Part shown: positions 12,510 through 17,901 of the stretch, one piece after another
Layout: each line of letters starts with the position of its first letter
How positions within the stretch are numbered: position 1 is the stretch's first letter
DNA from: a virus
Virus genome (UHGV): UHGV-0358463
Length of the DNA: 35,359 nucleotides
Reading direction: 5' to 3' (one strand)
Program-made: the position numbers and the translations under genes
Notes under the pieces: generated by a model
The model's database searches: none
What the model was told of the DNA's origin: nothing
What the model saw: the letters and a program-made list of their open reading frames with translations, nothing else

Positions 12510-12528
12510 GACGGCCATATTGGCCGTC
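12510..12528. terminator. perfect 8-bp hairpin (GACGGCCA-tat-TGGCCGTC) between convergent Q and cassette genes; possible bidirectional terminator
   Basis: Palindrome read directly; flanked by AT-rich sequence on both sides but no clean T-tract. Confidence 0.3.
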
Positions 12529-13705
12529 AGCTAAATAAATATGTAATAGCATAAGGCGTAAGTAAAAAGTAGAACCTAAATGTAAGATATAAGCCACATA
12601 AAACTATAATTCCTAATGAGGCAAAAACAACTTTCTGAACAAGCAATCTTGTGGTTAAACTATCAAATGTATCCTTTATATCTTCGTAAATAGCCTTGAA
12701 GTTATATTCTGCTTGTTGTTTTTTATGATTTAACTCATCATTTATTGCTGTTAAAGTTTGCCATTGATTAAATAGAACAAATAGAATCATAATAGTGAAG
12801 AACAATGCACCCAACACTACAGCTGTATTTATTAATGCTTGACTATCCCAACCATTAGCCTGCTTCATTTGAGTCGCAACGATAATTGTTGCGACGGGGA
12901 TACCTAATATCTGATTTTGTATGTCACTGAATACTTTATGTATTTTTCCCATCTCTTCTATTTTGGCTACTCGTAACTGATCCAGTATTTTCTCGTAAGA
13001 AAAACCAGAAACGAATACTTTGTATCCTTTTTGATAACTTTCATAAAGTTGTCCTAAATCCCTTAACATGAAGGAAAAAGAGGTTTCTTTAGTTTTAGAT
13101 TCACATGATGATTTTATGCTACTTGCTAAAATAGTAAGTTTTTGATCTTTATGCGTATCTTCTGCAAAGTTTGCGATCAAATTATGAATCAGATCTCCAT
13201 TAACATTCATAAGATCATCGCTAGAATAATTTACTGGAATTTTTAGTACGTTGGATTCGACGAATACCAATTCAAAATTTGTTTCATCTAAATAAGCAGA
13301 ACAATCTTTGAATAAAGTAATTAAGCTCAAAACATCTCTGTACTTGGATATAATAGCAGGCGACTTTTTATCCCTGTTGTGATAATTAAGTTCGATTATA
13401 AAGAAGTTACTGGCTTCCTTTATCCTATTTTTAGGATTTTTTAAATACTCATTAAAAGAGAAATGTAGCTGCCCCAATCGTAATTTGGGGGGGGTTATAT
13501 GTAAGGTTATAGTTTGGCCTAACTCAATGTTGCCAGATTCAAGGGTGATGCCAAAATCATGGGGATTCTCTGTGATATCGTTGATGATGTTACAGAGCTC
13601 CTCGTTTGAAAGAATGAGTGATGCTTCAGATAGGGTACCTGCAAATGTAGCGGCCTTGTAAATAGTCACTAAGTCTTTGAAGGTTCTCTGATTGTTACTG
13701 CTCAT
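12527..13705 (-). CDS. cassette gene B: protein with a large soluble N-terminal domain and two C-terminal hydrophobic helices
   Basis: 392 aa from the ATG at 13705 (ORF track gives 13714, a GTG); hydrophobic segments ALINTAVVLGALFFTIMILFVLF and KVVFASLGIIVLCGLYLTFRFYFLL; overlaps gene A by 11 nt. Confidence 0.7.
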   Translation of the reverse strand: MSSNNQRTFKDLVTIYKAATFAGTLSEASLILSNEELCNIINDITENPHDFGITLESGNIELGQTITLHITPPKLRLGQLHFSFNEYLKNPKNRIKEASNFFIIELNYHNRDKKSPAIISKYRDVLSLITLFKDCSAYLDETNFELVFVESNVLKIPVNYSSDDLMNVNGDLIHNLIANFAEDTHKDQKLTILASSIKSSCESKTKETSFSFMLRDLGQLYESYQKGYKVFVSGFSYEKILDQLRVAKIEEMGKIHKVFSDIQNQILGIPVATIIVATQMKQANGWDSQALINTAVVLGALFFTIMILFVLFNQWQTLTAINDELNHKKQQAEYNFKAIYEDIKDTFDSLTTRLLVQKVVFASLGIIVLCGLYLTFRFYFLLTPYAITYLFS

Positions 13706-14729
13706 CCTCTTCACCTAATTCTGATAAAATCTCTGATCTTAGCGTATCCGGAATCTCGGTAAGTATCAATTTATCGTTTTCTGAATCATAAAGAACGCTG
13801 CCATCATGCAAGGCCGCACGCTCGAATTTCAGAGACCAATGTTTGGACTTTCCTTTGAAACTAACAAGCCCACGTATAACGTTGCCATCAGGCACGAACC
13901 CATCAGAGAACTCCAGATCGTCATTGGTTAACTTTTCAACTAACAACTCAGGAGCAGTTGGCCATATCTCGTTTGCAAAAACTTGAGTGTCGAAAGCTTC
14001 ACCAGAACGATTTAAATTTTTTAATTTTTCATGAGCCTTATTTAGGAACTCTTCACGTGCCTCTGGTTCAAAACCTCTTTCAGTAGCAAATTCTAAAAGT
14101 GCATTCCGTAATTTTGTTGTTTCTTGTTTGGCAATTAGAATATCGTTGCAACCTAAAAACTTTTTGAAATAACCTGCTACTGAATTTTGCCCCTTTAGAA
14201 AGCTAATATATCTCTCTTTGCCATTCTGGCGCCCAGTTAAGTCAATTCGTCCCGCTACTCGAAGTTTAGCAATGTCTAGATATTCACTTTCTTGAATTTC
14301 AAAATCGTGGACTGAAGAGCCAACTGCTGATGTTAGGATTGCAACCATCAAATAATGATTTCCATTTACCTCATTATGGGCAATTATTACATAACCACCA
14401 GTAGACATTGATTCATCATCGGCTCTGGCTTTTAAATGATTGATCATTCGGATACTAGTATCATAAAAACTATGTGTTTTATTTACGAAATAATCATCAA
14501 CGATATTACCCATAGGGTAACTATCGCGGTCATCTTCAAATTTACCATATCCTTTACCTGCTCTCCCAGAGTACCTTTCAGTAAGTGCGTTAGAGAGGTC
14601 TTTTGATGCTTGCTGAACAGGTTTTTCTGAAGGACAAGGAATAATGGTGGCTAACCCCTGTTGTTCCTTGTTCATAATGTGAACAATAAACTTATGAGTG
14701 ATATTAGTGGGGGTCGCTGATGCAGTCAT
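13695..14729 (-). CDS. cassette gene A: NdpA/YejK-like nucleoid-associated-protein family homologue
   Basis: 344 aa; AAGGA Shine-Dalgarno at 14738-14742. Collinear matches to E. coli YejK recalled from memory: GGYVIIAH..YLMVAILTS, YLDIAKLRVAGRIDLTG, RYISFLKGQ, VAGYFKKFLGC, LILTEIPDTLRSEI. Confidence 0.75.
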   Translation of the reverse strand: MTASATPTNITHKFIVHIMNKEQQGLATIIPCPSEKPVQQASKDLSNALTERYSGRAGKGYGKFEDDRDSYPMGNIVDDYFVNKTHSFYDTSIRMINHLKARADDESMSTGGYVIIAHNEVNGNHYLMVAILTSAVGSSVHDFEIQESEYLDIAKLRVAGRIDLTGRQNGKERYISFLKGQNSVAGYFKKFLGCNDILIAKQETTKLRNALLEFATERGFEPEAREEFLNKAHEKLKNLNRSGEAFDTQVFANEIWPTAPELLVEKLTNDDLEFSDGFVPDGNVIRGLVSFKGKSKHWSLKFERAALHDGSVLYDSENDKLILTEIPDTLRSEILSELGEEDEQ

Positions 14730-14845: not shown

Positions 14846-14876
14846 AAACCCGCCGTCGAGCGGGTTTTGTCGTTTC
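14846..14876 (+). terminator. intrinsic terminator upstream of the lysis genes (candidate tR-prime-like site for Q antitermination)
   Basis: AAACCCGC-cgtcga-GCGGGTTT followed by TTTTGTCGTTT. Confidence 0.5.
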
Positions 14877-15826: not shown

Positions 15827-16202
15827 GCTGGTTATCGCAGCATTCTTCTCTACTGTCATCGGTTCTTTCATCTGGTCTGCTAACCACTACTACAGCAAAT
15901 ATCAGCACGAAAAGAAACGTGCTGATGAGGCTGTACAAAATGCTGAATCCGCAACCGCTATTACCAATAATGTCCTGCAATCACTGCAAATCGTCAATAC
16001 AGTTCTGGAGGCTAACCAGCATGCAAAACAGCAGATCGCACTGGAGTCACAGAGAACCCAGGAAGATATCAAAGTGGCTGTTGAGAATGATGATTGCGCT
16101 TCCCGTCTTGTTCCTGCTCGTGCAACTGAGCGGCTGCGCCGGTACGCGGACAATTTACGTACCAGTTCCGGCGGTACCACTACCGGCGAACCTGACCGCT
16201 GA
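15810..16202 (+). CDS. i-spanin (Rz-like)
   Basis: 130 aa; N-terminal membrane anchor LVIAAFFSTVIGSFIW then coiled-coil-like sequence; overlaps the endolysin 3' end. Confidence 0.7.
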   Translation: MKLSYKLVIAAFFSTVIGSFIWSANHYYSKYQHEKKRADEAVQNAESATAITNNVLQSLQIVNTVLEANQHAKQQIALESQRTQEDIKVAVENDDCASRLVPARATERLRRYADNLRTSSGGTTTGEPDR

Positions 16203-16344
16203 AACCCCACAGCCAGCTATTCCTGATCCGCTGACTTACAGAGATAGTCTGGATTTAAACGTGAGCCTGCTGTCAGTGCTGGCTGCCTGTAATAGGGATA
16301 AGGCTGATATTCGTAAAATTGAAGCAGAGAAGAGTGAGCCATGA
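16087..16344 (+). CDS. o-spanin (Rz1-like lipoprotein), in the +1 frame and extending past the Rz stop
   Basis: 85 aa; signal peptide with lipobox MMIALPVLFLLVQLSGC, proline-rich mature region. Confidence 0.6.
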   Translation: MMIALPVLFLLVQLSGCAGTRTIYVPVPAVPLPANLTAETPQPAIPDPLTYRDSLDLNVSLLSVLAACNRDKADIRKIEAEKSEP

Positions 16345-16538
16345 AGCAGTAAAGTGGAAAGATCGCAGCAAGAAGTGCCTGTTCAGAATTAATGAAGATG
16401 CCTCAAATACCTAAAATAGCGAGTAGCCAGATGCACGTCAACTACGAGTGTGTGGCCAGCATAACGTTGTATAAACTAAGTGATAGCAGAGTTCAATATA
16501 CGTATACTGAGAGAACTATTTCTATTTGAGAACTGAAA

Positions 16539-17132
16539 ATGACGGACTATACTTTTTTTTACTGGATAGAGATGCTTCTTAAAGAAGGCAATGTTTTATT
16601 TATTGTTCTTGCTTGTTTGATTGTCTTTTTTACTTTAAAAAAAGAAATAATAATGGTTTTAGGTCGTCTTAATACAGTTAAGCTAGGTGACTATGAGATT
16701 AAATTTAAAAAAGAAATGTTTGAAATAGAATCTAAAAGTATAGAGGTTATTAAAAATTTACCTGGAACAAATCCTGTCCTGCCGACACAACTCATTGAGA
16801 ATTTCAATATTTTTGAGAGTCTTGCTAGTACTCAGCCTAATGTTGCTGTACTTTCAGCTTGGCGCGAATTGGAGTTAACCGCTATAACGCTTGCATCTAA
16901 AAAGGGGATTGAGATCAACGGGACATCTTTAGGGCGGGCTTCAGGTATCGCTGCCTTGAAAAATGTCCAATCTGCAAACAAAATTTCTAGTGACATTGTT
17001 AAGCTTTATGAAAAAACAGGAGAGTCTATTAAGCCTATATCCCAAGGAAAGCTCTTATGTACTCAGGAAGATGCTTTGGCATTCTGTAAGAATGCAAAAA
17101 GACTTAGCAATTATTTAACATCCATATTTTAG
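16539..17132 (+). CDS. hypothetical membrane-anchored protein in an AT-rich moron
   Basis: 197 aa; N-terminal hydrophobic helix NVLFIVLACLIVFFTL; AT-rich unlike flanking phage genes; no family recognised. Confidence 0.55.
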   Translation: MTDYTFFYWIEMLLKEGNVLFIVLACLIVFFTLKKEIIMVLGRLNTVKLGDYEIKFKKEMFEIESKSIEVIKNLPGTNPVLPTQLIENFNIFESLASTQPNVAVLSAWRELELTAITLASKKGIEINGTSLGRASGIAALKNVQSANKISSDIVKLYEKTGESIKPISQGKLLCTQEDALAFCKNAKRLSNYLTSIF

Positions 17133-17208
17133 TATGTATCCATAGAGCATCCATTATTATTGGAGTAGTCGTTACAGCAGGCATTCACTGAGTGCCTGCT
17201 GCTGAACT

Positions 17209-17421
17209 CTAATAGCAAGATGGAGAATCTGCATTAAATTTTTGAGAGAGATTACTTATTTCATTCACTCCCTTATGATTAAGTAATCGCCTAATATTTT
17301 CTGGAGCCTTGAATATAAATGGGCCTTTTAGATCCTCGATGATTCCTCCTGCGACGCAGATCAAATGCTTGAAATCAACATCTTCAATTGTGGGCTTGGA
17401 GTCCAGATTATCGCTTGTCAT
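17209..17421 (-). CDS. hypothetical small protein, 70 aa
   Basis: ATG with AAGGA about 9 nt upstream; convergent with the 197-aa gene; AT-rich. Confidence 0.4.
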   Translation of the reverse strand: MTSDNLDSKPTIEDVDFKHLICVAGGIIEDLKGPFIFKAPENIRRLLNHKGVNEISNLSQKFNADSPSCY

Positions 17422-17550
17422 TTAAAAACATCCTTTCTTGCCATTAGCAGCATTGAGCATGTTATGGAATCTGTAATTTAGGATGCTGGTACTACCAGTA
17501 CTTTTTTTGTTTCATTTTGTGAATCACCTCATTTACGAGGGGAGCCTATC

Positions 17551-17901
17551 ATGCCACCACGAACACCAAAAGCCTGCCGTGTTCGCGGCTGCCGCTCTAC
17601 AACCACAGACCCTTCAGGCTACTGCGAAAGCCACAAAAGCGAAGGCTGGAAGCAATACAAAACTGGACAATCCCGTCATCAGCGCGGCTACGGTTCGAAG
17701 TGGGACAGTATCCGCGCGCGTGTCCTGAAGCGTGACAAAGTCCTGTGTCAGTTATGTCTGCGTGCTGGTGTGGTGCGTGAGGCGAAGACCGTTGACCACA
17801 TCATCCCTAAATCGCATGGCGGCACTGATGTCGACAGTAATCTGCAGAGTTTGTGCTGGCCGTGTCATAAGGCGAAGACGGCCCGTGAACGGCTGAAGTA
17901 A
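17551..17901 (+). CDS. HNH endonuclease (terminase-associated)
   Basis: 116 aa; Cys-rich with DHIIPKSHGGTDVDSNLQSLCWPCHKAKT; immediately upstream of the small terminase. Confidence 0.85.
   Translation: MPPRTPKACRVRGCRSTTTDPSGYCESHKSEGWKQYKTGQSRHQRGYGSKWDSIRARVLKRDKVLCQLCLRAGVVREAKTVDHIIPKSHGGTDVDSNLQSLCWPCHKAKTARERLK

What the first reader, a model, noticed from the sequence alone, without database searches (positions are those of the whole stretch)
16345..17550. Second AT-rich moron between spanins and HNH/terminase: membrane-anchored 197-aa protein plus convergent 70-aa ORF
The 16539-17132 gene and the convergent 17209-17421 ORF are AT-rich compared with the neighbouring lysis and packaging genes and have no recognisable family. 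They are separated by a perfect 9-bp-stem hairpin (17175-17201, CAGCAGGCA/TGCCTGCTG) with no U-tract. The N-terminal hydrophobic helix suggests an inner-membrane protein, as seen in superinfection-exclusion or abortive-infection morons.
Basis: partly seen in the sequence, partly recalled or inferred. Interest (0 to 1): 0.5.

Follow-up and report, generated by a model that had tools for sequence, protein, structure and literature searches.

The report
Prophage cargo: membrane-anchored degenerate HEPN protein
Between the lysis and DNA-packaging genes of this E. coli prophage sit two independently acquired cargo genes: a membrane-anchored protein with an RNase-type (HEPN) fold that has lost its catalytic residues, and a small real gene that genome annotation misses, and both are probably phage-conflict factors whose function is untested.

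Summary
ORF197 (16539-17132, +), ORF70 (17209-17421, -), the hairpin (17175-17201) and the low G+C (0.36 against 0.49-0.60 in the flanks) are all present.

Diverged homologues lie after the spanin genes in three of four prophage loci. Three loci, including this window, have a promoter-like site 30-31 nt upstream of the start codon.

The slot between Rz1 and HNH is a cargo hot spot. Elsewhere it holds Iss/Bor, GrlR and other genes.

ORF70 is a real gene: a 58%-identical homologue gives dN/dS 0.16. RefSeq did not annotate it in the eight records inspected. It occurs without ORF197, and ORF197 occurs without it, so the two are not a functional pair.

The hairpin keeps its structure through compensatory changes.

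The function is inferred, not shown. The most likely role is a lysogen-expressed, non-catalytic phage-conflict factor.

The parts
16302..16345 (.). Left mosaic junction of the cargo block, at the 3' end of Rz1
   Evidence: In an alignment of 8 E. coli copies, two very different spanin alleles (about 70 differences between 16062 and 16302) flank a nearly identical block that starts around 16302-16345.
16480..16508 (+). Sigma-70-like promoter candidate for ORF197 (GTGATA-17-TATACT), ending 31 nt before the ATG
   Evidence: Found by the promoter scan. Equivalent sites lie at the same distance from the start codon in diverged homologue loci: L002 GTGACC-17-TATAAT (10/12) and L003 GTGTCA-17-TAGAAT. 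L005 has TATAGT at the aligned position. These are consensus matches only; no transcript data exist.
16539..17132 (+). ORF197: a single-pass membrane protein with a long stalk helix and a C-terminal HEPN-fold (DUF4145-like) domain
16593..16637 (+). Transmembrane anchor (residues 19-33, VLFIVLACLIVFFTL); the family's WP signature is absent
   Evidence: Hydropathy. Net charge is -2 before the segment and +3 after it, which suggests N-out/C-in by the positive-inside rule (inference). 173 of 187 family members have WP here; none of the window clade does.
16785..17126 (+). HEPN-fold domain (residues 83-196)
17019..17048 (+). Degenerate catalytic segment, G161-ESIKPISQ-G170, at the place where relatives have LRxLRNxAxH
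   Evidence: Alignments A2, A4 and hhalign. The R is replaced by I/V and the H by Q or S. K165, S168 and G170 are invariant in the clade, and no invariant His exists anywhere in the protein.
17175..17201 (.). Hairpin of 12 bp stem and 3 nt loop between the convergent genes, with no U tract; a probable shared 3'-end element
   Evidence: Fold z = -5.4. In L016 the structure is kept as 11 pairs with two compensatory double changes (A-T to G-C, C-G to T-A) and one T.G to C-G change. L005 has a degenerate remnant after its ORF197 homologue.
17209..17421 (-). ORF70: a small helical protein of unknown function; a real gene that RefSeq does not annotate
   Evidence: phrog_22590. Not annotated in any of the 8 RefSeq records inspected, and the 25 genomes matched list no feature under it. 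The homologue in L016 (3036-3245, -) shares 42 of 72 aligned residues. dN/dS is 0.16, and differences by codon position are 17/16/35.
17484..17510 (+). Intrinsic-terminator-like site (7-bp stem plus T7) just upstream of HNH
   Evidence: Found by the terminator scan. It could stop transcripts from the cargo promoter that are not antiterminated before they reach the packaging genes (inference).

Best explanation
The region is a cargo ('moron') slot between the spanin genes and the HNH/terminase genes of a lambdoid E. coli prophage. It holds two independently acquired transcription units.

The main unit encodes ORF197. This is an inner-membrane protein with a short periplasmic N-terminus, one transmembrane helix, a long cytoplasmic stalk helix and a cytoplasmic HEPN-fold domain. 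It is a divergent, prophage-borne offshoot of the 'WP-TM + DUF4145 HEPN' family. That family was predicted in 2013 to couple membrane sensing to RNA cleavage, and no experimental test of it turned up in the full-text searches run here. The ORF197 clade has lost both the WP signature and the Rx4-6H catalytic dyad. It keeps a different, strictly conserved segment in the same place.

These points are shown here: the fold, the family relationship, the motif loss, the presence/absence polymorphism, and the independence of the two genes.

These points are inferred. ORF197 is probably transcribed from its own promoter in the lysogen, and is also read through by the antiterminated late transcript. It probably acts without cleaving RNA, as a membrane-tethered binder or sensor that interferes with an incoming or competing phage, by exclusion or an abortive-infection-type response through oligomerisation at the membrane.

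ORF70 is a separate small gene on the opposite strand. Its 3' end is marked by the conserved hairpin, and its function is unknown.

My confidence is about 0.9 in the identity and architecture, and about 0.35 in the conflict or exclusion function. The single figure given (0.5) is a compromise for the statement as a whole.
For: Family and fold:
- An exhaustive profile search found 271 relatives, mostly 180-200 aa with the same architecture.
- 24 of 44 sampled relatives hit Pfam DUF4145, 11 hit HEPN_RiboL-PSP and 7 hit HEPN_Swt1.
- hhalign gives 99.8%, E 4.6e-29 over residues 7-197, covering the TM segment and the stalk.

Motif loss:
- 173 of 187 relatives have WP and 159 of 187 have Rx4-6H. None of the window clade has either.
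- The replacement segment and 49 other positions are invariant among homologues of 47-69% identity.

Cargo status:
- Present in 20 of 5426 genomes.
- Other cargo occupies the same slot in other genomes.
- Mosaic junction at about 16302-16345.
- Low G+C.

Own transcription signals:
- Promoter-like sites lie 30-31 nt upstream of the ATG in the window, L002 and L003.
- L003 has a canonical terminator right after the gene.

Link to phage conflict:
- Canonical family members are cargo of temperate elements: phage-plasmid D6 gp103, between the dar anti-restriction genes and the portal gene; a P2-like Pseudomonas prophage, next to the integrase; and E. coli and Salmonella plasmids of about 35-96 kb.
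- One relative lies in a defence island with an MmeI-type restriction-modification gene, an AAA_15/AAA_21 ATPase next to a weak DUF4276 match, Fic and RhuM.
- Single HEPN proteins carried by prophages are proven abortive-infection effectors: HepS (PMC13043305), Tha (PMC11087260), and the DUF4145 protein RAZR (PMC13017515).

Independence of ORF70.
Against: - There are no expression or phenotype data.
- ORF197 and its canonical relatives have no significant hit in PADLOC.
- All validated HEPN defence proteins cited need the Rx4-6H dyad, which is absent here, so the proposed non-catalytic mechanism has no direct precedent in this family.
- Some distant relatives sit in plain housekeeping contexts.
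- One E. coli copy carries a frameshift in the 5' T8 run (L011), and truncated variants exist (P0012). Loss is therefore tolerated.
- The hairpin after the gene lacks a U tract, so termination is not assured.
- The promoter calls are consensus matches at roughly the density seen in shuffled sequence.
Confidence: 0.5

Rival explanations
1. Anti-defence decoy. ORF197 is a catalytically dead paralogue that heterodimerises, through the shared TM, stalk and HEPN interfaces, with canonical WP-TM/DUF4145 HEPN effectors carried by co-resident elements such as D6-like phage-plasmids. This poisons their composite active sites and protects the prophage's own lytic growth.
For: HEPN RNases form their active sites across a dimer (PMC13017515, PMC13043305). 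Homology to canonical members covers the whole length, including the TM segment and stalk. Canonical members occur on E. coli and Salmonella phage-plasmids. The gene lies on the late-operon strand with no terminator between Rz1 and its start codon, so it should be expressed during lytic growth.
Against: Identity to canonical members is only about 20-30%, so conservation of the interface is unproven. The conserved promoter-like site suggests expression in the lysogen as well. Co-occurrence with canonical members was not tested.
Confidence: 0.12
2. Accessory of the lytic cycle or of lysis. ORF197 is a late membrane protein that tunes holin or spanin action, or envelope events at lysis.
For: Homologues sit directly after the spanin genes, on the same strand, in three different lysis cassettes.
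Against: The same lysis cassettes occur in other genomes with different cargo in this slot. L005 has a homologue that is not next to lysis genes. Canonical relatives sit at unrelated cargo sites. There is no similarity to any holin, antiholin or spanin family. The slot is a general cargo hot spot, which explains the position by itself.
Confidence: 0.1
3. Host-fitness or virulence cargo, analogous to Bor/Iss, which occupies the same slot elsewhere. On this reading ORF197 is a lysogen-expressed envelope protein that changes host physiology rather than phage sensitivity.
For: Iss/Bor and a GrlR-family regulator occupy the same slot in other E. coli prophages. ORF197 is a membrane protein with a plausible promoter of its own.
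Against: It is not a lipoprotein or an outer-membrane protein. Nearly all of the protein is predicted to be cytoplasmic, and it has a fold typical of RNA or nucleotide-related conflict systems.
Confidence: 0.1
4. ORF197 is a functionless, decaying relic of a HEPN defence gene, and ORF70 is a chance ORF.
For: The catalytic and WP motifs are lost. Frameshifted and truncated copies exist. RefSeq does not annotate ORF70.
Against: 49 positions are invariant, including the replacement motif, across homologues of 47-69% identity in different prophage backgrounds. ORF70 has a 58%-identical homologue with dN/dS 0.16 and an excess of third-position changes.
Confidence: 0.07

Closest known systems
WP-TM + DUF4145 membrane-associated HEPN family (Anantharaman et al. 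2013, PMC3710099, section 'Bacterial membrane-associated HEPN domains'); phrog_18019, e.g. phage D6 gp103
   Same: Same size of about 190 aa. Same architecture: an N-terminal single TM helix, a stalk helix with the K-[YL]-[KG]-D-x-E-x-x-F motif, and a C-terminal HEPN domain with A-W-R-E-x-E. Full-length profile homology (99.8%). Also carried as cargo of temperate phages.
   Different: The 'strictly conserved' WP in the TM helix is absent. The Rx4-6H motif is replaced by G-x-x-[IV]-K-[PL]-[IL]-S-x-G, and no conserved His exists. Two invariant Cys (C174, C183) appear. Pfam DUF4145 does not detect the protein. It forms its own PHROG, 30030.
RAZR / PD-T7-4 (zinc finger + DUF4145 HEPN RNase; PMC13017515)
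   Same: A HEPN domain of the DUF4145 branch in a single-gene E. coli system with a phage-conflict role.
   Different: RAZR is soluble, has an N-terminal zinc ribbon, needs R146 and H154, and is activated by assembling on phage ring proteins. ORF197 is membrane-anchored and lacks the dyad. It has no PADLOC hit.
HepS (Gifsy-1) and Tha (S. aureus prophages): solo HEPN abortive-infection proteins on prophages (PMC13043305, PMC11087260)
   Different: Both are soluble, sense phage tail proteins, and cleave tRNA or RNA through Rx4-6H. ORF197 has a TM anchor and no catalytic dyad. There is no detectable sequence similarity.
Non-catalytic HEPN domains (sacsin HEPN, MtlR/YggD)
   Different: They have unrelated biology and no membrane anchor. 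The similarity is in fold only.
Lambda bor / E. coli iss moron slot
   Same: The same genomic position, after Rz/Rz1 and before the packaging genes. Iss is annotated in exactly this slot in related E. coli prophages (H28 and H30). The composition is AT-rich.
   Different: Bor/Iss is an outer-membrane lipoprotein unrelated in sequence and fold.

Membership tests
HEPN superfamily | All-alpha HEPN helical bundle | tested here: met
HEPN superfamily | Rx4-6H catalytic motif at the start of the last core helix | tested here: not met
   Where relatives have LRxLRNxAxH, the window clade has G-E-S-I-K-P-I-S-Q-G. No Rx4-6H motif is found in the C-terminal half of any clade member (residue 111 onward), and no His is invariant.
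HEPN superfamily | Dimerisation that forms a composite active site | not testable with these tools
   No multimer prediction or experiment was available.
WP-TM + DUF4145 HEPN family (Anantharaman 2013) | Full-length sequence homology to family members | tested here: met
   Profile search E 1.4e-17 to P0013, which passes the Pfam DUF4145 threshold. hhalign 99.8%, E 4.6e-29 over 185 columns.
WP-TM + DUF4145 HEPN family (Anantharaman 2013) | Single N-terminal TM helix | tested here: met
   Hydropathy peak at residues 19-33, aligned with the TM segment of canonical members.
WP-TM + DUF4145 HEPN family (Anantharaman 2013) | Strictly conserved WP signature in the TM helix | tested here: not met
   173 of 187 relatives have WP. 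The window protein has I-V at that place, and none of P0001-P0007 or P0011 has WP.
WP-TM + DUF4145 HEPN family (Anantharaman 2013) | Pfam DUF4145 (PF13643) match | tested here: not met
   No Pfam hit at E up to 1 for the window protein. 24 of 44 relatives match.
Moron (independent cargo transcription unit in a phage genome) | Present in some, and absent from other, otherwise similar phage genomes | tested here: met
   20 of 5426 genomes carry the block. The same flanks carry other cargo elsewhere. Mosaic junction.
Moron (independent cargo transcription unit in a phage genome) | Composition that departs from the neighbouring phage genes | tested here: met
   G+C 0.364 against 0.49-0.60.
Moron (independent cargo transcription unit in a phage genome) | Own promoter and terminator | tested here: inconclusive
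   A promoter-like site lies at a conserved distance in 3 of 4 loci. The hairpin has no U tract in the window, while L003 has a canonical terminator. There are no transcript data.
Moron (independent cargo transcription unit in a phage genome) | Expression from the repressed prophage | not testable with these tools
   This needs RNA-seq or a reporter in a lysogen.
Known anti-phage defence systems (PADLOC models; HepS, Tha, RAZR, the PICI 'HEPN-TM' system) | Sequence match to a catalogued defence protein | tested here: not met
   No PADLOC hit for ORF197 or ORF70 at E up to 1. Canonical relatives give only weak hits at E of about 1e-3 or worse, for example to a '2TM effector' model. Sequences of the PICI HEPN-TM system (mentioned in PMC11087260 and PMC12948488) were not available to compare.
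Known anti-phage defence systems (PADLOC models; HepS, Tha, RAZR, the PICI 'HEPN-TM' system) | Protection phenotype against phage | not testable with these tools
   This needs an experiment.
HEPN-MNT or other two-gene toxin-antitoxin pair (ORF197 + ORF70) | Conserved adjacent partner gene in one operon | tested here: not met
   The two genes are convergent. ORF70 has no nucleotidyltransferase or other family hit. Each gene occurs without the other.
Phage lysis proteins (holin, antiholin, spanin, endolysin) | Homology to a lysis family | tested here: not met
   No Pfam hit. The best PHROG hits (30030 and 22590) and the weaker ones are all of unknown function, and none is in the lysis category.

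The most novel reading that the evidence does not exclude
ORF197 is a phage-made 'pseudo-HEPN'. On this reading a temperate phage captured a membrane-anchored HEPN effector, disabled its RNase dyad and its WP sensing signature, and kept it as a dominant-negative decoy. The decoy co-assembles with the active WP-TM/DUF4145 HEPN effectors of rival elements such as D6-like phage-plasmids and silences them. That would be a new anti-defence principle: poisoning a dimeric nuclease with a dead subunit. It would also give the first functional handle on a HEPN family predicted in 2013, for which the literature searches here found no experimental study.
Probability: 0.1. Interest if true: 0.7.

Novelty: new variant of a known kind. 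Interest (0 to 1): 0.4.

Why it matters
The membrane-anchored WP-TM/DUF4145 HEPN proteins were predicted in 2013 to link signals at the cell surface to RNA cleavage, and no experimental study of them turned up in the literature searched here. This prophage clade is a natural variant that keeps the architecture but has replaced the catalytic motif and lost the sensor motif. It therefore offers a direct comparison with phage D6 gp103, a canonical member from the same host range, to ask what the scaffold does with and without RNase chemistry.

The finding also shows two practical points. The Rz1-HNH junction of this common E. coli prophage type is a cargo hot spot worth mining. At least one real small gene there, ORF70, is missed by RefSeq annotation in every record inspected.

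If the protein turns out to be an exclusion factor or an anti-defence decoy, it adds a non-catalytic mode of action to HEPN biology. If not, it is a rare accessory gene of modest interest.

Tried and rejected
Direct scans that found nothing useful:
- Pfam, NCBIfam and PADLOC scans of both proteins. The only hits were far below threshold: NAD_Gly3P_dh_C at E 0.14 and darobactin_RiPP at E 0.008 against a cut-off of 45 bits. I discarded both as chance.
- INPHARED phages by DNA (distant mode) and by tblastn for both proteins: no match.
- IMG/VR: only copies of 99% identity or more.
- GTDB species representatives: no relative with the patterns used.
- The word-indexed protein search for ORF70 found only near-identical copies. 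The informative homologue came from a distant blastn search of E. coli genomes instead.
- Rfam on 16200-17700 at E up to 1: two chance-level hits outside the cargo.
- BFVD fold search for ORF197: nothing at E of 1e-3 or better.
- afdb50 was not available.
- The ORF70 single-sequence AF2 model (pLDDT 67, three helices) gave no PDB fold match.
- PDB sequence-profile searches gave only weak hits to 'HEPN domain-containing protein', E 0.11-0.2.

Ideas considered and rejected:
- The 45-aa ORF at 16392-16529 as a gene. It has no support, and this stretch varies more between copies than ORF197 does.
- Met39 as the true start, as the 159-position phrog_30030 profile implies. I rejected this because residues 7-38 are conserved at the protein level in all homologues and align with the TM domain of the canonical family.
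- ORF70 as the antitoxin or partner of ORF197. I rejected this because the two genes are distributed independently.
- The hairpin as belonging to only one gene. It is found intact with the ORF70 homologue alone (L016) and as a remnant with the ORF197 homologue alone (L005), so it is best seen as a shared element between convergent genes.
Full report
OBSERVATION

- ORF197 runs 16539-17132 on the + strand, and ORF70 runs 17209-17421 on the - strand.
- G+C is 0.34 for ORF197, 0.376 for ORF70 and 0.364 for the whole finding. The holin, endolysin, Rz and Rz1 genes are at 0.49-0.52. HNH, TerS and TerL are at 0.54-0.60.
- The hairpin arms CAGCAGGCA (17175-17183) and TGCCTGCTG (17193-17201) are exact. 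The stem extends inward to 12 pairs with a 3-nt loop. The surrounding 101 nt fold with z = -5.4 against shuffles. No U tract follows on either strand.
- The surrounding genes are as described. There is a lambda-family holin, an endolysin that RefSeq calls GH24, and a DUF2570/Rz-like spanin with an embedded Rz1 (LysC). Downstream are an HNH endonuclease, a P27-family small terminase and a large terminase.

WHAT ORF197 IS

Direct Pfam, NCBIfam and PADLOC scans are empty. PHROGs has a family for it, phrog_30030, of unknown function. Its 159-position profile starts at residue 39.

The protein collection holds only seven clusters for this protein. One is the 99%-identical E. coli cluster, and six are at 47-69% identity, all from assembled sequencing runs. 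These homologues conserve the N-terminal 38 residues at the protein level, so the 197-aa reading is correct.

An exhaustive profile search of 1.84 billion representative proteins found 271 relatives at E of 1e-3 or better. Nearly all are 180-200 aa long and align over most of their length. Of 44 that I sampled, 24 hit Pfam DUF4145, 11 hit HEPN_RiboL-PSP and 7 hit HEPN_Swt1. A profile-profile comparison of the window clade against 25 canonical members gives 99.8% probability and E 4.6e-29 over residues 7-197. That span includes the membrane segment and the stalk.

The canonical consensus reads ...LAWP(x9)F-R...RL...KYKD-E-x-F...SP-AAI-EAWRE-E...LRxLRNxAxH.... This is the architecture that Anantharaman et al. 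described in 2013. [quoted passage not shown] They predicted that the HEPN domain is cytoplasmic and couples stimuli at the membrane to RNA degradation (PMC3710099). My full-text searches found no experimental work on that family.

WHAT IS DIFFERENT HERE

Among 187 family members of 150-230 aa, 173 have WP in the first 45 residues, 159 have Rx4-6H in the C-terminal part, and 178 have a strong hydrophobic segment. The window clade (P0001-P0007) and its nearest outlier P0011 have neither WP nor Rx4-6H.

Where relatives have LRxLRNxAxH, the clade has G-[EDK]-[SA]-[IV]-K-[PL]-[IL]-S-x-G. K165, S168 and G170 are invariant. Two further invariant cysteines (C174, C183) are present, and no invariant histidine exists anywhere in the protein.

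Intermediate relatives (P0014, P0024) keep the R but have lost the H. The motif was therefore not simply eroded. It was replaced by something that is itself conserved. This argues for a retained, but probably non-RNase, function.

The hydrophobic core spans residues 19-33. Net charge is -2 before it and +3 after it, which by the positive-inside rule puts the HEPN domain in the cytoplasm. This is an inference, and it agrees with the 2013 prediction.

GENOMIC BEHAVIOUR

The 1206-bp block is present at 99% identity or more in 20 of 5426 complete E. coli genomes, always on the chromosome and always complete.

A query spanning the endolysin gene to TerS matches 2999 genomes, but only those 20 cover 80% or more of it. 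Genomes with both flanks hold other cargo in the slot:
- Iss (the Bor homologue)
- a GrlR-family regulator
- DUF6236 and DUF6979 proteins
- one or two hypothetical genes

The left junction lies at about 16302-16345. Two very different spanin alleles abut a nearly identical cargo block there. This is the classical bor/iss moron slot. That the slot is the lambda bor position is my own knowledge; the presence of Iss in it is shown.

The diverged ORF197 homologues sit directly after the spanin genes, on the same strand, in three different lysis cassettes: the window, L002 and L003. In L005 the homologue lies in another prophage context, followed by an HNH remnant.

Promoter-like sites lie 30-31 nt before the ATG in three loci:
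- window: GTGATA-17-TATACT
- L002: GTGACC-17-TATAAT
- L003: GTGTCA-17-TAGAAT

L005 has TATAGT at the aligned place. L003 also has a textbook terminator right after the stop codon.

No terminator separates Rz1 from ORF197, so the antiterminated late transcript should also read through the gene (inference). A terminator-like site at 17484-17510 lies just before HNH.

Canonical family members are themselves cargo of temperate elements:
- phage-plasmid D6 gp103, between the dar anti-restriction genes and the portal gene
- a P2-like Pseudomonas prophage, next to the integrase
- E. coli and Salmonella plasmids of about 35-96 kb

Metagenomic relatives occur in three kinds of context. One is housekeeping. 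One is next to a second DUF4145 gene. One is a defence island with MmeI, an AAA_15/AAA_21 ATPase next to a weak DUF4276 match, Fic and RhuM.

ORF70 AND THE HAIRPIN

RefSeq annotates nothing at ORF70 in the eight records I inspected. The 25 genomes matched also list no feature under it. The word-based protein search found only near-identical copies, two of which are truncated or frameshifted.

A distant blastn search found five more E. coli genomes with a 70%-identical stretch in the same place, just before HNH, and without ORF197. That stretch encodes a 69-aa protein with 42 of 72 aligned positions identical to ORF70. dN/dS is 0.16, and differences by codon position are 17, 16 and 35. It hits the same PHROG, 22590, at E 1e-40. 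ORF70 is therefore a genuine gene under purifying selection, and it is independent of ORF197.

Its single-sequence model has three helices at pLDDT 67 and matches no known fold. I cannot assign a function.

The hairpin downstream of the L016 homologue keeps 11 pairs. It shows two compensatory double changes (A-T to G-C, C-G to T-A) and one T.G to C-G improvement. L005 has a degenerate remnant of the same sequence after its ORF197 homologue. The hairpin is thus a selected structure between convergent genes. It most likely defines or protects the 3' ends of both transcripts (inference).

MECHANISM

The following are shown:
- the fold
- the family relationship
- the loss of both family signatures
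- the cargo status
- the independence of the two genes

The following are inferred. ORF197 is made in the lysogen from its own promoter. It sits in the inner membrane with its pseudo-HEPN domain in the cytoplasm. It acts by binding rather than by cleaving RNA. The most likely role is in phage-phage or phage-host conflict. I put about 0.35 on an exclusion or abortive-infection-type role.

The basis for that estimate is by analogy:
- Solo HEPN proteins carried by prophages are proven defence effectors (HepS, Tha).
- A DUF4145 protein, RAZR, is a proven defence RNase (PMC13043305, PMC11087260, PMC13017515).
- Canonical relatives travel as phage cargo.

Against it, all of those proteins need the dyad that is missing here.

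The rival explanations are these:
- A dominant-negative anti-defence decoy aimed at canonical family members (0.12).
- A lytic-cycle or lysis accessory (0.10). The positional link to spanins is explained by the hot spot itself, and the family is not otherwise tied to lysis genes.
- A Bor/Iss-like host-fitness factor (0.10).
- A decaying relic (0.07). This is disfavoured by 49 invariant positions across homologues of 47-69% identity.

NOVELTY AND VERDICT

This is neither a new kind of system nor a plain new member. It is a derived variant of a predicted, uncharacterised membrane-HEPN family that fails two of the family's defining sequence features while keeping its architecture.

The finding is real and its moron reading is right. 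Its 'no family' and 'pair' statements are wrong, and its functional guess remains open. Interest is moderate at 0.4. The locus offers a clean and easily testable entry into an unstudied HEPN family, plus an unannotated small gene, but there is no evidence yet of an unusual mechanism.

Noticed in passing
window 12527-14729 (- strand): A second AT-rich block (G+C 0.30-0.42) lies upstream of the lysis genes. It carries a 344-aa NA37 (YejK-like nucleoid-associated protein, Pfam E 1.5e-68) gene and a 395-aa ORF with no Pfam hit, both on the minus strand.
   Followed up: partly
window 16546-16553 (T8 run in codons 3-5 of ORF197); L011 (E. coli AR_0061): One of eight E. coli copies has T7 instead of T8, which shifts the frame. 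RefSeq then calls a shorter protein from a downstream start. The same T-run is present in the 67%-identical homologue in L005. This could be a slippage-prone on/off site or a sequencing error.
   Followed up: partly
window 14846-14867 (+): A strong terminator-like hairpin (AAACCCGC...GCGGGTTT plus a T-rich tail) lies about 150 nt upstream of the holin gene. It is a plausible tR'-type terminator of the late operon.
   Followed up: no
L016 2522-2863 (-), E. coli S19-651 and four other genomes: In the genomes that carry the ORF70 homologue without ORF197, the rest of the slot is filled by a different minus-strand gene, a 113-aa hypothetical protein (WP_001361772.1).
   Followed up: no
L005 2297-2443 and 2680-3129: After its ORF197 homologue, L005 has a decayed start of the HNH gene (MPPRTPKACCVRGYHSTTTDPSGCC, then out of frame). 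It then has a 149-aa ORF with its own N-terminal hydrophobic helix and no family assignment.
   Followed up: no
L028 4001-4558 (phage D6 gp103, NC_050154.1 25650-26207): A canonical WP-TM/DUF4145 HEPN protein (LAWP and LRSLRNEAAH both intact) sits between the P1-like dar anti-restriction operon (hdf-darA-ddrA-ddrB) and the portal gene of phage-plasmid D6. The same gene is on E. coli and Salmonella plasmids of about 35-96 kb.
   Followed up: partly
L001 (E. coli LHM10-1, NZ_CP037903.1): In this genome the prophage that carries the block is a remnant. The Q gene is truncated by an IS3-family element, and the genome ends after TerS at an ISEcp1 copy, yet the ORF197/ORF70 block is intact at 99.9% identity. 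A type I restriction-modification system and other island genes lie upstream.
   Followed up: no
window 17501-17508 (T7 tract of the terminator-like site); L010: One E. coli copy (ET358) has a 1-nt deletion in this T tract.
   Followed up: no
P0015 and P0016 (canonical relatives): The N-terminal TM and stalk part of two canonical relatives gives weak hits (E 9e-4 to 4e-3) to a PADLOC 'Effector 2TM' model. This may hint that the WP-TM module is shared with membrane effectors of signalling defence systems, but the hits are too weak to use.
   Followed up: no
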